Shown here: one piece after another, positions 20,897 to 23,417 of the stretch
Position numbering within the stretch: position 1 is the first letter of the stretch
How the letters are laid out: the number at the start of each line of letters is the position of its first letter
NCBI RefSeq assembly: GCF_009914755.1
Contig: NC_060930.1
Direction: 5' to 3' (one strand)
Origin: the human T2T-CHM13v2.0 reference genome, Homo sapiens
Length of the DNA: 64,000 nucleotides
The notes under the pieces: model-generated
The model's input: the letters and a program-made list of their open reading frames with translations, nothing else
What the model was told of the DNA's origin: nothing
Databases searched by the model: none
Translations under genes and position numbers: made by a program

Positions 20897-21937
20897 CTAT
20901 GAATGTGGACCACATTTTTGCAGCTTTTATTTCCGCAGTTACTTATGTTTCTTTCTCTGCTATTATATGATCAGCTCCATAAGTAAAAGACCTGTCTTAC
21001 CTGCACATCCTCAGCACAGAGCTCAAGCATTAAATAAATATTAGGGGAACTGGTTGTACTTTCCTACCAGCCCATAAATGGGCATCAGAAACTCAACGTG
21101 TTAGAATTATTTGAAAATCAGAGTAACTAGTTTGCCGACTTCTAGTGTGCAGCCTTTACGCCAGCTGTTGTGGCTGTGTAGGGGTCTTCTTTTCTTCCAT
21201 CCCTATTCTACGATGCATTCAACATAAGCGAAGTGTTATTATTCACGAAAGGCGCTAATTTGTGGACGGATGCACCTAATGTTCTTAACCCCTGGTTTCT
21301 TCGCACTAAAACCAATCCCAATAGCATTCCGTTTCAAGTGAAAGGTTTTTATTTTTTTAAACTAAGTAAATTTCTTTTTCTCCCAATTTACTCACTGCAG
21401 TACCTTATACTACAAGAACCAGCAACTGGTTTCCTCTTAATGTCTAAACATAACATCATTGTTAAAAATTAGAGACTTTGTCACAATTTGCAGTTTTTAA
21501 AAGTAAGGTAAATAAAGTATCTCATTATACAGAAGTACAAGGTCTCGTTCTTGTACATTTCGCTCTTCCCAAATATTCTGCAATCAGAACCCTGATTGCA
21601 AAACTAAGCACATGGATTCTCAAAAGACACCAGGCCAGAGAATTCTTTCATCCTAGTCCCAATCTCGCCCTTGAAAGCGTGGGAGGGGCAAGGCTGCGCC
21701 ACGGGAAATAAATGAGGGCTGCCAAAGGCCGTCGGAGGCCGCGGGGCTCGGCAGGCAGGCGAAGACCCAGCGTCGCATTGCAGAGTCGAGACGACCTGGG
21801 CTGCCGTGACGCCGCAGTCGCCGGCCCTAGTTTCCCCCGCCCTGCCCGAGCGCGTCCGCGCCTCTCGCCCGAATCCGGGTACCACCGGCGACTCGGGTCG
21901 GCCCCTTCTGGCTTGTTCCGGCGTCCGGCCTGGCATG

Positions 21938-21997
21938 CGGGTGCTGCGGCTGCTGCGGCTGCCGCCGCCGCTGCTGCCGCTGCCGCGGGGGCTGCGG
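21938..21997 (+). repeat. Interrupted CNG (CTG/CCG/CGG) trinucleotide repeat, 20 units
   Basis: cgg gtg ctg cgg ctg ctg cgg ctg ccg ccg ccg ctg ctg ccg ctg ccg cgg ggg ctg cgg: 18 of 20 triplets are CNG. Confidence 0.9.
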
Positions 21998-22204
21998 CTT
22001 GGGAAGCTCCGCGCTTCCGCAGGCCTGGCCTCCGCCGCCCGGGCCCCCGCAGCCTGTCGCTGGACCCCGCGCCGGCCCAGCGCACCGCCCTCAGGCCCCG
22101 AGCCCCGCCCTGGCCTCCGCCTCGGCCTCGCCTCCAGCCCCGGGACGCGGCCCGCCACCGCCGCTGCCGCCAGCCCAGACGCGCCGCCCGCATGCGCCGC
22201 GACC

Positions 22205-22223
22205 ATGGAGCGCCCCGAAGCGG
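22205..22223 (+). CDS. AKAP7: AKAP7 long isoform coding exon 1 (MERPEA-G), phase-1 donor
   Basis: Strong Kozak gcgaccATGG at 22205; donor G|gtgaga at 22224; splices in frame to 31726 giving the recognisable AKAP7 N-terminus MERPEAGGINSNECENV. Confidence 0.95.
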
Positions 22224-23417
22224 GTGAGACCGGGCTGTCCAGCGGGCCGGGGCGGGGGCGACAGGAGCCGCGGGGGCCTGGGCCTGCTCTGCGCTCGAAC
22301 TTTGGGAGGGCCTGACCCGCGCCGGCCCTTCTCCGAGTCTCCCTCCTTCCCAAAAGGACTCAGGGTAGCACCGAGAAGCCCGGTGCAACCGGGGTGTACA
22401 TCAGTGCTGCCTGTAGCGAAGCGTTTTAATGCACGCATTGTGGGTCCGACAGGAGGCGGGGGTATGAGCCCATCCCCGAGTTTCACTTTTCTTTCTCCCT
22501 TTCTCATCCTGTGACCCTTTGCACAAAGTTCATGCCAGTACACATTCCTTCCGACGGTGTTGATGTGGGTAAATGTAAACAAAACCTAGTAAAATTTCGA
22601 TTTTATCTTATATCACAAATATTAAGCACCCGAACCACCATACTGTCTCATTTAGGATTTTCTGCCAGGTTTGGACATGACCGCTTTTAAAACTGGCGCC
22701 AAGTCTACACTAGCGCCCGGAATGAATTTCCAGTTTAGGTCAGCGTTTGTTGTGAACTGAACTTTGTGATAGAGCGAGTTAGGGGTGGACTTTCGGTAAA
22801 AGGGTCCGCAAACCAATTAGAGAAAAGGTGCTCCTCTGCAAGAGTTTCATAGGATAAACTCATAGAAGAGTATAAAAAGCATAAAAACGTTAAAGTGTAC
22901 TATATAAATAGCAGTTAATCGTGTGAATATGTTGACAATTGTTAAGTGAATGATGACAGTGAGTTTTTGCATTTAGGAAATGCATGGGAATGGAAATTGT
23001 TAAGGAGAAAAGAGCCATACTCCAGTTCCTTGTTTAAGTGCCGTGGCTTTGCAATTCAGGATCCTGTTAGCATATCTGTATATTTTCCTTACTCATAAAG
23101 TTTAAGATGTTTGTGGAGGTTACTTCCTCCTTTCATCCATTTTCGGACACTATTAACTTGTTTTGTCCATTTCTCCCTAATAATTTGGATTTTACTTTTG
23201 TTCCCTTTTTATGAGGAGGAAAGGAAAGCCTGGAGGTCAAGTAACTTGTTGATTTCTACGCAGCTGTCAACATTTACTAACGTGTAAGATGCTAATACTA
23301 TTTTTAGTAGCTAAGCCAGGACTAGAATGGATGCCCTTAGCCCTTTCCAGTTGTTCTTAGGAATAAACTTATTTATGTATGTACTTATGTATGTATGTAT
23401 ATATGTATATATGTATT

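What the first reader, a model, noticed from the sequence alone, without database searches (positions are those of the whole stretch)
21935..22223. In-frame upstream ATG would add a 90-aa mitochondrial-presequence-like extension to AKAP7 (possible mitochondrial 2',5'-PDE/AKAP isoform)
Seen: an ATG at 21935 (cctggcATGc, purine at -3) lies exactly 270 nt upstream of, and in frame with, the AKAP7 start at 22205, with no stop between. It encodes MRVLRLLRLPPPLLPLPRGLRLGKLRASAGLASAARAPAACRWTPRRPSAPPSGPE... with 11 Arg/Lys and no acidic residue in the first 55 aa, an Arg every third residue at the start, and an R-2-type site (LRA|SA). Known: this composition is typical of mitochondrial matrix presequences. 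Long AKAP7 is a nuclear/cytosolic PKA anchor with a 2H phosphodiesterase domain that degrades 2-5A, and the other human 2-5A PDE, PDE12, is mitochondrial. Inference: choice of TSS or leaky scanning between two ATGs could give dual nuclear and mitochondrial targeting. Caveat: GC-rich islands have few stops and favour R/P/A/L codons by chance, and the prolines at positions 10-17 break the helix.
Basis: partly seen in the sequence, partly recalled or inferred. Interest (0 to 1): 0.8.

Follow-up and report, generated by a model that had tools for sequence, protein, structure and literature searches.

The report
Conserved upstream-start extension of AKAP7
An upstream in-frame start codon in the first exon of human AKAP7 would add about 90 residues to the protein; this extension is kept in the same reading frame across placental mammals, looks like an organelle (probably mitochondrial) targeting peptide, and is missing from the curated human protein.

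Summary
ATG 21935 lies 270 nt upstream of the annotated AKAP7 start (22205), in frame and with no stop. It sits 27 nt inside the annotated exon 1.

Within human alone this means little. The stretch is 83% GC, all three forward frames are open, every frame gives a basic, acid-poor peptide, and the "Arg every third residue" comes from a tandem repeat.

Comparison with other species changes the verdict.
- Predicted AKAP7 proteins of 70 of 96 other placental species (8 orders) carry a homologous extension.
- In 54 of 56 non-primates it matches human frame 0 best.
- The 223 nt just upstream of the ATG already carries two frame-shifting indels among three simians.
- Three species have lost the annotated Met.
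- More distant, unnamed chordate AKAP7 homologues that are not GC-rich also begin with acid-free, Arg/Leu/Ala/Ser-rich segments of 35-70 residues, followed by an internal Met.

Best reading: a conserved alternative-start proteoform whose N-terminus is a targeting presequence, probably mitochondrial. Translation and localisation are untested, and no published description was found. Interest 0.65.

The parts
21908..22223 (+). Exon 1 of NM_016377.4 (AKAP7 long isoform), inside a CpG island
   Evidence: Exon limits come from the gene table supplied with the finding. GC is 0.71-0.835 over 21700-22399. A GT donor follows 22223.
21935..21937 (+). Upstream in-frame ATG, the first ATG of the annotated transcript. 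Context is G at -3 and C at +4, which is adequate but not optimal.
   Evidence: In other species the residue before this Met is Gly wherever a model runs further upstream, and the second residue is Q/L/R/P/H in 64 of 71. This implies C at +4 if Leu and Arg use CTN and CGN codons as in human.
21935..22204 (+). 90-codon N-terminal extension ORF, continuous with the annotated CDS
   Evidence: No stop. Homologous in-frame extensions occur in 70 other placental species. Frame 0 is the best match in 54 of 56 non-primates. GC1/2/3 = 0.82/0.79/0.88 in this frame.
21936..21999 (+). Tandem repeat (periods 9, 3, 6, 21) encoding residues 1-22. It is a length-variable Leu/Arg/Pro tract that is longest in human and bonobo.
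   Evidence: Tandem Repeats Finder. Length variants among primates are seen. AKAP7 is listed among genes with human-specific tandem repeats near start sites (PMC9331589, Table 2 passage).
21986..22054 (+). Conserved N-terminal block, human residues 18-40 (RGLRLGKLRASAGLASAARAPAA). This is the core of the candidate targeting peptide.
   Evidence: Of 23 residues, 14-18 are identical to human in 17 of the 19 non-primate representatives compared (the other two: 10 and 11). It aligns across 8 orders.
22192..22194 (+). Second upstream ATG, out of frame, with C at -3. It lies within the Cys codon pair 'AC' that only primates have at this position.
   Evidence: Non-primates have S/N/R instead of C here.
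22205..22223 (+). Annotated AKAP7 start (MERPEA) with a strong context: A at -3 and G at +4
   Evidence: and the gene table. The residue before this Met is T, A or S (purine at -3) in 70 of 71 species. The Met itself is present in 68 of 71.
21712..21934 (+). Flanking control region just upstream of the ATG (73% GC), where the reading frame is not conserved
   Evidence: The orangutan model P0007 joins human frame 2 to frame 0 near 21725. The marmoset model P0023 follows human frame 2 to about 21912 and then switches to frame 0.

Best explanation
ATG 21935 is a conserved alternative start codon of the long AKAP7 mRNA.

Mechanism (inferred):
- On transcripts that begin at or upstream of the annotated 5' end (21908), scanning ribosomes meet this AUG first.
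- Its context (G at -3, but C at +4) is adequate rather than optimal. Some ribosomes would therefore start here and make a protein 90 residues longer. Others would scan on to the strong annotated AUG at 22205 and make the known nuclear/cytosolic form.
- Transcripts that start downstream of 21935 would make only the known form.

Anatomy of the extension:
- a variable Leu/Arg/Pro repeat at the very N-terminus, expanded in apes;
- a conserved basic, acid-free block (human residues 18-40);
- a Pro/Arg/Ala-rich linker of variable length.

I read the N-terminal part as a cleavable targeting presequence, most likely for the mitochondrial matrix. Two in-frame AUGs flanking it would then split one gene product between mitochondria and nucleus/cytosol.

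Shown here: the ATG, the frame, its position inside the annotated exon, its conservation, and the presequence-type composition, including in distant homologues that are not GC-rich.

Inferred, not shown: that the AUG is used, the leaky-scanning split, import and cleavage.

My odds: conserved coding extension about 0.8; targeting function of any kind about 0.6; mitochondrial specifically about 0.45-0.5.
For: 1. Position. The ATG is in frame, open, and 27 nt inside annotated exon 1 (and the gene table).

2. Breadth. Predicted AKAP7 proteins with a homologous extension contiguous with exon 1 occur in 58 of 81 non-human species in the first listing and in 12 of 15 further muroid species. That is 70 of 96 species, in Primates, Rodentia, Lagomorpha, Carnivora, Cetartiodactyla, Chiroptera, Pholidota and (weakly) Xenarthra.

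3. Frame.
- Against the three forward-frame translations of the human DNA, the extension matches frame 0 best in 54 of 56 non-primates.
- The median z against shuffles is 10.4.
- By thirds, frame 0 wins in 54/56 (N-terminal), 49/56 (middle) and 53/56 (C-terminal). All three thirds agree in 44 of 56.
- Extension lengths range from 29 to 94 residues. Large deletions in Pteropus, Ochotona, muroids and squirrels all keep the frame on both sides.

4. Local control. In the 223 nt immediately upstream (73% GC), orangutan and marmoset each carry a frame-shifting indel relative to human, at different places. None is seen in the 270-nt extension in 13 other primates.

5. Level of conservation. Identity to human on aligned columns in 19 non-primate representatives is 45-78% for the extension. 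That is close to the 58-78% of the undisputed first 60 residues. The 2H domain is at 76-88%.

6. The annotated Met is replaced in three species that keep the upstream Met: Leu in Nannospalax, Val in Microtus oregoni, and no Met in armadillo.

7. Presequence-type features in 71 species. The first 30 residues hold a mean of 5.1 Arg/Lys. 65 of 71 species have no Asp/Glu there. A+L+R+G+P+S make up 86%.

8. Distant homologues.
- Of 38 unnamed representatives with an interpretable N-terminus (2H-domain identity 46-61% to macaque where measured, in 20 selected hits; two that were put to the atlas fell among Chordata AKAP7 clusters), 14 begin with an acid-free segment.
- That segment is rich in R, L, A, S, V, F and T: in the first 30 residues R is 14%, K 2%, E 0.7% and D 0%.
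- An internal Met follows. Most of the other 24 models start at an acidic Met.
- In P0154, P0155, P0234 and P0173 the basic and hydrophobic residues sit on opposite helical faces, 144-169 degrees apart.

9. Precedents.
- CNP, another 2H phosphoesterase, has a long isoform with 20 extra N-terminal residues proposed as a mitochondrial signal (abstract of PMC10761555).
- N-terminal extensions that add a mitochondrial signal, such as in RFK, have been shown experimentally (passages of PMC12718117).
Against: - There is no direct evidence of translation. AKAP7 does not occur in the 5 supplementary files held for the HeLa initiation-site and localisation study or in its main text. In an N-terminal proteoform study it appears only as an interaction partner, in the 2 of 8 occurrences shown.
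- The curated human transcript keeps the downstream start (gene table).
- Within mammals the composition is what any frame of this GC-rich DNA gives. The amphipathic moment is not above shuffles (mean z -0.17 over 71 species). In the distant homologues the excess is only mild (mean z 0.49; 5 of 14 above 1).
- Gly and Pro are frequent in the block.
- The proposed R-2 Arg is kept in only 37 of 71 species.
- 26 of 96 species have only models without the extension. These include all 4 canids, both Equus and 3 lemurs.
- All these models are longest-ORF predictions, so species with a broken frame would be invisible in my sample.
- Marmota marmota has an internal shifted-frame segment inside the conserved block.
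- One model with the extension is flagged LOW QUALITY (P0078).
- The armadillo match is not significant (z 0.3).
- In my illustrative null model (assumed rates), 52-57% of unconstrained sequences that pass the ascertainment still match frame 0 in all thirds if indels are rare or mostly multiples of three. Many indels here do lie in period-3 or period-6 repeats.
- Full-length mouse AKAP7 expressed from the annotated start is exclusively nuclear and carries a strong NLS (passages of PMC4161237).
- From recall, not checked here: AKAP7 is not in the MitoCarta inventory.
Confidence: 0.5

Rival explanations
1. Tolerated extension. The upstream AUG is used, and the frame is kept only because an out-of-frame upstream start would silence AKAP7. 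The added peptide is a disordered, low-complexity tail with no targeting role. It may tune translation or stability.
For: The middle of the extension is low-complexity and highly variable in length, with RLRLRL and RTRL repeats and total lengths of 29-94 residues. Mammalian N-termini show no excess amphipathicity. The composition equals what GC-rich DNA gives in every frame.
Against: The N-terminal block is about as conserved as the neighbouring true coding sequence. Distant homologues that are not GC-rich keep an acid-free, basic and hydrophobic N-terminus of 35-70 residues, which is hard to explain without a function for the peptide. The upstream Met is retained where the annotated Met is lost.
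Confidence: 0.22
2. Chance ORF. This is an untranslated 5' leader in a CpG island. The ATG and open frame persist by chance and through DNA-level (promoter or leader) conservation, and automatic longest-ORF models in other species merely copy the artefact.
For: All forward frames are open at 83% GC. Automatic models do overreach: the Pongo pygmaeus, Callithrix, Camelus and Phodopus models run on to still more distant ATGs. The null model passes ascertainment 25-34% of the time. The curated RefSeq start is downstream.
Against: Frame 0 is specifically conserved in 54 of 56 non-primates, and in each third. The adjacent 223 nt lose frame within simians. 70 of 96 species pass, against the 25-34% expected under my assumed null. 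Distant homologues have presequence-like N-termini.
Confidence: 0.1
3. The extension targets somewhere other than mitochondria. Candidates are a nucleolar signal from the Arg/Pro-rich part, or an ER/SR signal from the moderately hydrophobic LWGLGASAGLVAAA-type segment of Laurasiatheria. The long isoforms are known to act at the sarcoplasmic reticulum.
For: Pro/Arg-rich stretches occur in the linker. N-terminal extensions that add nucleolar or ER signals are documented for PTMS and DPH5 (passages of PMC12718117). AKAP18 delta forms a SERCA2-PLN complex at the SR (passage of PMC8436057).
Against: Arg or Lys interrupts the hydrophobic stretch in primates and rodents. A cleaved ER signal would put a PKA anchor in the lumen. 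The Pro/Arg linker is the least conserved part and is largely deleted in muroids. The composition of the distant N-termini (R far above K, S/T-rich, no acids) is the classical matrix-presequence type by established knowledge, though no predictor was run.
Confidence: 0.13

Closest known systems
CNP1/CNP2 (2',3'-cyclic nucleotide 3'-phosphodiesterase)
   Same: It is a member of the same 2H phosphoesterase superfamily. [quoted passage not shown]
   Different: The extension is 20 residues against about 30-90 here. CNP2 is an accepted, annotated isoform with experimental localisation, whereas the AKAP7 extension is not in the curated human protein and is untested.
Dual targeting by two in-frame AUGs flanking a mitochondrial signal (yeast PIF1; human RFK, TRNT1, GSR)
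   Same: The layout is the same: an upstream AUG, a presequence, then a second AUG, with leaky scanning or start choice splitting the product between compartments (abstract of the Pif1 preprint; passages of PMC12718117).
   Different: For those genes, initiation and localisation were measured. AKAP7 appears neither in that paper's text nor in its 5 held supplementary files.
Known long AKAP7/AKAP18 isoforms (gamma, delta)
   Same: Same gene and same exon 1. There are already two in-frame starts: the 348-residue form starts at MERP in exon 1, and the 326-residue gamma form starts at a later Met (P0083). [quoted passage not shown]
   Different: Published constructs begin at the annotated initiator Met and localise to nucleus or cytosol. 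None includes the 90-residue extension.
D-AKAP1 (AKAP1) N-terminal targeting variants
   Same: It is an AKAP whose alternative N-termini decide between mitochondria and ER (abstract of PMC2133123, listing).
   Different: AKAP1 is anchored in the outer membrane by a hydrophobic N-terminal segment, and the variants arise by splicing. Here the candidate is a soluble matrix-type presequence added by an upstream AUG.
PDE12
   Same: It is a cellular 2',5'-phosphodiesterase located in the mitochondrial matrix (passages and references in PMC4161237). A mitochondrial AKAP7 would be a second such activity there.
   Different: The fold is unrelated (exonuclease-endonuclease-phosphatase family, same passage), and there is no PKA-anchoring domain.

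Membership tests
Conserved N-terminally extended proteoform (alternative upstream AUG) | In-frame upstream start codon with no intervening stop, inside the mRNA | tested here: met
   Exon 1 begins at 21908 according to the supplied gene table.
Conserved N-terminally extended proteoform (alternative upstream AUG) | Start codon and reading frame conserved across species | tested here: met
   70 of 96 other species have a homologous extension. Human frame 0 is the best match in 54 of 56 non-primates. The flanking region loses frame within simians. Caveats: the sample is ascertained through longest-ORF models, and the null model is not overwhelmingly rejected.
Conserved N-terminally extended proteoform (alternative upstream AUG) | Codon-level purifying selection (dN/dS below 1, positive PhyloCSF) | not testable with these tools
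   No DNA of other mammals is reachable. Only protein-level identity is available: 45-78%, against 58-78% for the adjacent coding N-terminus.
Conserved N-terminally extended proteoform (alternative upstream AUG) | Ribosome initiation at the upstream AUG, or peptides from the extension | not testable with these tools
   No such data are held. AKAP7 is absent from the one initiation-site supplement I could search.
Mitochondrial matrix presequence | N-terminal, net positive, nearly free of acidic residues, rich in Arg/Leu/Ala/Ser | tested here: met
   Human has 11 R/K and 0 D/E in the first 55 residues. 65 of 71 mammals have no D/E in the first 30. In the 14 distant homologues the first 30 residues are R 14%, E 0.7%, D 0%. 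In mammals alone this is not specific, because all six frames give it.
Mitochondrial matrix presequence | Amphipathic helix | tested here: inconclusive
   Mammals: the maximum moment is not above shuffles (mean z -0.17; human). Distant homologues: mean z 0.49, with 5 of 14 above 1, and opposed basic and hydrophobic faces in 4 examples. The AlphaFold2 model was too poor to use (mean pLDDT 34.4).
Mitochondrial matrix presequence | Processing-peptidase motif (Arg at -2, -3 or -10) | tested here: inconclusive
   LRA|S is present in human, but the Arg is kept in only 37 of 71 species. An A-R-A-P type motif is present in 47 of 71. Such short motifs are common by chance.
Mitochondrial matrix presequence | Import into mitochondria, or presence in mitochondrial proteomes | not testable with these tools
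   No listing or passage that I saw places AKAP7/AKAP18 in mitochondria. The five papers were seen as listings only.
Regulatory upstream ORF (uORF or overlapping uORF) | Separate reading frame, or a stop before or within the main ORF | tested here: not met
   The ORF from 21935 is in frame and continuous with the main ORF. Only ATG 22192 is out of frame, and it is primate-specific.

The most novel reading that the evidence does not exclude
Long AKAP7 is an ancestrally dual-targeted vertebrate protein. The upstream-AUG form would be imported into the mitochondrial matrix. There it would supply a PKA-anchoring helix and a 2H (2',5'-phosphodiesterase, AMP-binding) domain inside the organelle. The downstream-AUG form is the known nuclear, cytosolic and SR protein. 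If so, the field has studied only the short-start form for 25 years. The contested idea of anchored PKA inside mitochondria, and the question of a second mitochondrial 2',5'-oligoadenylate-degrading activity beside PDE12, would both gain a concrete, testable candidate.
Probability: 0.4. Interest if true: 0.8.

Novelty: new member of a known kind. Interest (0 to 1): 0.65.

Why it matters
AKAP7 (AKAP18) long isoforms are studied as PKA scaffolds in heart and kidney and as the cellular relative of viral 2',5'-phosphodiesterases. In the papers I read, constructs begin at the annotated Met and the protein is nuclear or cytosolic.

A conserved upstream start would mean that a whole proteoform, possibly with a different address, has been left out of constructs, antibody interpretation, knock-out design and variant interpretation. 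Variants in what is now called the 5'UTR would become missense or frameshift variants.

If the address is mitochondrial, it bears on the long-running question of PKA anchoring inside mitochondria and on 2-5A turnover.

It is also a caution in both directions. The single-genome evidence was worthless (GC-rich, all frames open). The automatic models of other species, usually dismissed as longest-ORF artefacts, carried the real signal.

Tried and rejected
- A regex for the conserved motif misclassified most primates as lacking the extension. I replaced it with length and contiguity plus alignment (then).
- RNA structure of the leader 21908-22223: MFE -167.2 kcal/mol, but shuffles give -175 +/- 5 (z +1.5). 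There is no special structure that would favour the upstream AUG.
- AlphaFold2 of the macaque extended protein with a 37-sequence alignment gave mean pLDDT 34.4 and pTM 0.25. Even the known 2H domain was not confidently folded, so the model says nothing about the extension.
- Pfam finds nothing in the extension. The macaque model has the two AKAP7 domains at 167-364 and 371-427.
- The atlas look-ups on P0154 and P0189 gave only 'Chordata AKAP7', with no finer taxon.
- The alignment of distant and mammalian N-termini is too loose to say that the internal Met of distant homologues is the same column as MERP. I claim only a recurring layout.
- The illustrative null simulation uses rates I assumed. 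It tempers the frame test but is not a calibrated test.

Literature:
- AKAP7 + 'N-terminal extension' (whole word): 0 papers.
- AKAP7 + 'ribosome profiling': 5 papers, 4 listed, none about AKAP7 initiation judging by titles and abstracts. One table lists AKAP7 among genes with human-specific tandem repeats.
- AKAP7 + uORF: 1 review, unread.
- AKAP7 + MitoCarta: 3 papers. Two were read as passages and are irrelevant; PMC10665055 was not opened.
- AKAP7 + 'mitochondrial targeting': 5 papers, listings only.
- The 2026 preprint with many 'AKAP7' hits concerns AKAP79.
It may already discuss start codons of the long isoforms.

No mammalian DNA other than the window is reachable, so no dN/dS, PhyloCSF or Kozak-context comparison was possible. 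Mouse and rat were not among the 48 hits. Their closest listed relatives, Apodemus and Arvicanthis, have the extension.
Full report
**1. The observation**

The window shows ATG at 21935 (cctggcATGc: G at -3, C at +4) and the annotated AKAP7 start at 22205 (cgaccATGg: A at -3, G at +4). The 270 nt between them are in frame and free of stops.

The gene table supplied with the finding puts the 5' end of NM_016377.4 at 21908. ATG 21935 is therefore the first ATG of that transcript model, 27 nt from its end. The only other upstream ATG, at 22192, is out of frame with C at -3.

**2. Why the human sequence alone proves nothing**

- The stretch is 83.0% GC, inside a CpG island.
- All three forward frames and two of three reverse frames are open across it. 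The in-frame open stretch reaches back to TGA 21713, upstream of the annotated transcript.
- All six frames give Arg/Lys-rich, acid-poor peptides: R+K 7-17 and D+E 0-3 in the first 55 residues. Only the high Leu content is particular to this frame.
- The first 22 codons are a tandem repeat of period 9, 3, 6 and 21. This produces the Arg-every-third pattern.
- The hydrophobic moment accordingly peaks at 120 degrees. At the helical 100 degrees it is below the mean of shuffles (0.38 against 0.46 +/- 0.12).
- The leader is no more structured than shuffles (z +1.5).
- GC by codon position in frame 0 is 0.82/0.79/0.88, the coding-like order but only weakly so.

**3. Other mammals**

A search with the 96-residue translation against longer proteins returned 23 hits. 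These were the window's own ORF and 22 predicted AKAP7 isoforms of apes, Old World monkeys and marmoset that carry the extension.

A second search, using the region around the annotated start of the chimpanzee model, gave 295 hits, of which 120 were listed. I located the annotated start in each and read what lies upstream.
- Of 81 non-human species, 58 have a model with an extension of 30 or more residues contiguous with exon 1: Chiroptera 16, Primates 14, Rodentia 10, Cetartiodactyla 7, Carnivora 6, Lagomorpha 2, Pholidota 2, Xenarthra 1.
- 23 have only models without it. These include all 4 canids, 2 Equus, 3 lemurs, hyaena, colugo and jerboa, plus species whose close relatives do have it.

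A third search aimed at muroids added 12 species with a shortened extension of 29-37 residues and 3 without. Mouse and rat were not among the 48 hits. Apodemus, Arvicanthis and Acomys were, and they have it.

The total is 70 of 96 species.

The alignment is collinear along the whole extension: M-x-L-L-R, G-L-R-L-x-G-L-x-A-S-A-G-L-x-A-A-A-R-A-P-A-A, P-R-P-x-A-P-P, R-P-R-P-G-L-R-L, A-A-A-A-x-x-D-A-P-P-A-x-A-A-T, then MERP.
- Euarchontoglires have 5-13 extra Leu/Arg/Pro residues after the Met.
- Human and bonobo have the most.
- In muroids the Met lies about ten residues further in.

**4. Is the frame really conserved?**

These are longest-ORF predictions, so an open net frame is guaranteed by how they entered my sample. 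The test is whether similarity stays in one frame throughout.

I aligned each non-primate extension against all three forward-frame translations of the human DNA.
- Frame 0 wins in 54 of 56. The exceptions are Nannospalax (a tie) and armadillo (weak).
- The median z against shuffles is 10.4.
- By thirds, frame 0 wins in 54, 49 and 53 of 56. All three thirds agree in 44 of 56.
- The first third of Marmota marmota matches frame +1. This is a real or assembly frameshift inside the conserved block.

An illustrative simulation with rates I assumed tempers this result. Unconstrained sequences pass the ascertainment 25-34% of the time. Of those, 15-57% still match frame 0 in all thirds. The high end applies when indels are rare or mostly multiples of three, and many indels here do sit in period-3 or period-6 repeats.

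The better control is empirical. In the 223 nt (73% GC) just upstream of the ATG:
- the orangutan model joins human frame 2 to frame 0 near 21725;
- the marmoset model follows human frame 2 to about 21912 before switching.

That makes two independent frame-shifting indels among three simians. None is visible in the 270-nt extension in 13 other primates.

Large deletions in Pteropus, Ochotona, squirrels and muroids also keep the frame on both sides.

Identity to human on aligned columns in 19 non-primate representatives is 45-78% for the extension. The first 60 undisputed residues are at 58-78%, and the 2H domain is at 76-88%.

Both starts look maintained.
- The residue before the annotated Met implies a purine at -3 in 70 of 71 species.
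- The second residue after the upstream Met implies C at +4 in 64 of 71, if Leu and Arg use CTN and CGN codons as in human.
- Three species have lost the annotated Met but keep the upstream one.

I conclude that the extension is a conserved coding feature of Boreoeutheria (odds about 0.8). Xenarthra is uncertain.

**5. Beyond mammals**

A profile of 37 extended mammalian proteins was searched against every cluster representative of a 1.84-billion-protein library. It gave 1353 hits at E up to 0.001, with the best 150 listed and no names. Of 147 newly stored hits, 38 start with Met and have the conserved (L/M)PFA motif plus a basic cluster within 260 residues.
- Fourteen of these begin with a segment that has no acidic residue for more than 25 positions and three or more Arg/Lys in the first 30. 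Several more narrowly miss this rule.
- Most of the remaining 24 start at an acidic Met, like the annotated human start.
- In the 14, the first 30 residues are L 14.5%, R 14%, A 12%, S 7.6%, V 7%, P 6%, F 5%, T 5%, K 2%, E 0.7%, D 0%. This is not a GC artefact.
- Examples are P0178 (MAVLRTVSFLCNFNSTVTRRAPQK...), P0189 (MQGTRIVLRTSVWRLAFRAAFIRSQRDVARLSTPRARY...), P0154 (MVLRLLRALRFPIGAAAAPAHRIALRSW...) and P0155 (MQRLLRRLLPAFRSARPPAA...).
- An internal Met followed by Glu or Gln typically comes right after this segment. Models P0187 and P0188 start at the Met-Glu that aligns with the internal Met-Glu of several of them.
- Column homology with mammalian MERP cannot be claimed at this distance.
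- Among the 20 hits measured, the 2H domain is 46-61% identical to macaque in all but two closer, short-start models (76% and 80%).
- The atlas places the two proteins I queried among chordate AKAP7 clusters. Their taxa are otherwise unknown to me.
- Amphipathicity is mildly positive: mean z 0.49, with 5 of 14 above 1. Basic and hydrophobic faces are opposed by 144-169 degrees in four examples.

A presequence-like N-terminus followed by a second in-frame Met appears to be an old property of long AKAP7.

**6. What the literature says**

Papers read as passages:
- Full-length mouse AKAP7 expressed from the annotated start is nuclear. Removing the N-terminal domain with its NLS makes it cytoplasmic. 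PDE12 is mitochondrial (PMC4161237).
- Human AKAP18 gamma (326 residues) was cloned from a cDNA whose upstream sequence has three in-frame stops. It therefore has a different first exon, and the constructs began at the initiator Met (PMC2174236).
[quoted passage not shown] Extensions can add a mitochondrial signal, as in RFK. AKAP7 occurs neither in its text nor in the 5 supplementary files held (PMC12718117).
- AKAP7 is listed among genes with human-specific tandem repeats at start sites (PMC9331589).
- No mitochondrial link appears in PMC12221368 or PMC8436057.

Seen as listings or abstracts only:
- CNP2's 20-residue N-terminal mitochondrial signal.
- D-AKAP1 N-terminal targeting variants.
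- Pif1's two AUGs flanking a mitochondrial signal.

Searches that found no description of this extension or of a mitochondrial AKAP7 are. In one search five papers hold both terms but could not be opened.

bioRxiv supplements and any supplements not held could also bear on translation evidence.

**7. Verdict**

The feature is most likely a conserved alternative-start proteoform of long AKAP7. It is absent from the curated human annotation but present in automatic models of many species.

Its N-terminus has the properties of a targeting presequence, and mitochondria are the most likely destination. That last step rests on composition and on analogy with CNP2 and RFK. It does not rest on a predictor, a proteome or an experiment.

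The conserved core lies at residues 18-40.

This is a new member of a known kind: dual products from two in-frame AUGs. It is worth a bench test, because the experiment is simple and the answer would change how this AKAP is studied.

Noticed in passing
window 22192-22194: The second upstream ATG, out of frame, sits in the palindrome-like GCATGCGC. From recall this resembles an NRF1 half-site; I did not test that. The Cys codon that creates it is found only in primates, while other mammals have S/N/R at that position.
   Followed up: partly
window 21936-21999: The Leu/Arg/Pro tract after the upstream Met is a triplet-type tandem repeat whose length differs between human, bonobo, chimpanzee, gorilla and orangutan. 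It is likely polymorphic and, if translated, changes the very N-terminus of the protein.
   Followed up: partly
P0112 (Nannospalax), P0133 (Microtus oregoni), P0108/P0109 (armadillo): The annotated initiator Met of the long isoform is replaced (Leu, Val, or no Met) while the upstream Met is kept. In these species the upstream AUG would be the only AUG for an exon-1-encoded long form.
   Followed up: partly
P0059 (Marmota marmota): A segment inside the conserved block reads in human frame +1, and the frame is then restored (74 against 75 residues in other marmots). This is either an assembly error in GC-rich sequence or a tolerated double frameshift.
   Followed up: partly
P0007/P0008 (Pongo pygmaeus), P0023 (Callithrix), P0058 (Camelus bactrianus), P0131 (Phodopus); window 21712: Some automatic models run on to still more distant ATGs. 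An example is the equivalent of human ATG 21712, which in human is in another frame and upstream of the annotated transcript. These parts are not conserved in frame and look like longest-ORF artefacts.
   Followed up: yes
window 22205-55714 (annotated coding parts): There is a sharp composition break. The extension has GC3 of 0.88, whereas the annotated AKAP7 coding parts in the window have GC1/2/3 of 0.51/0.28/0.35.
   Followed up: no
hits (P0025 gorilla, P0106 Lontra, P0114 Odobenus): Other predicted first exons give short unrelated N-termini joined at the exon 1/2 boundary (GGINSN...). Together with the gamma cDNA described in PMC2174236, this shows that the long isoforms use several alternative first exons.
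   Followed up: no
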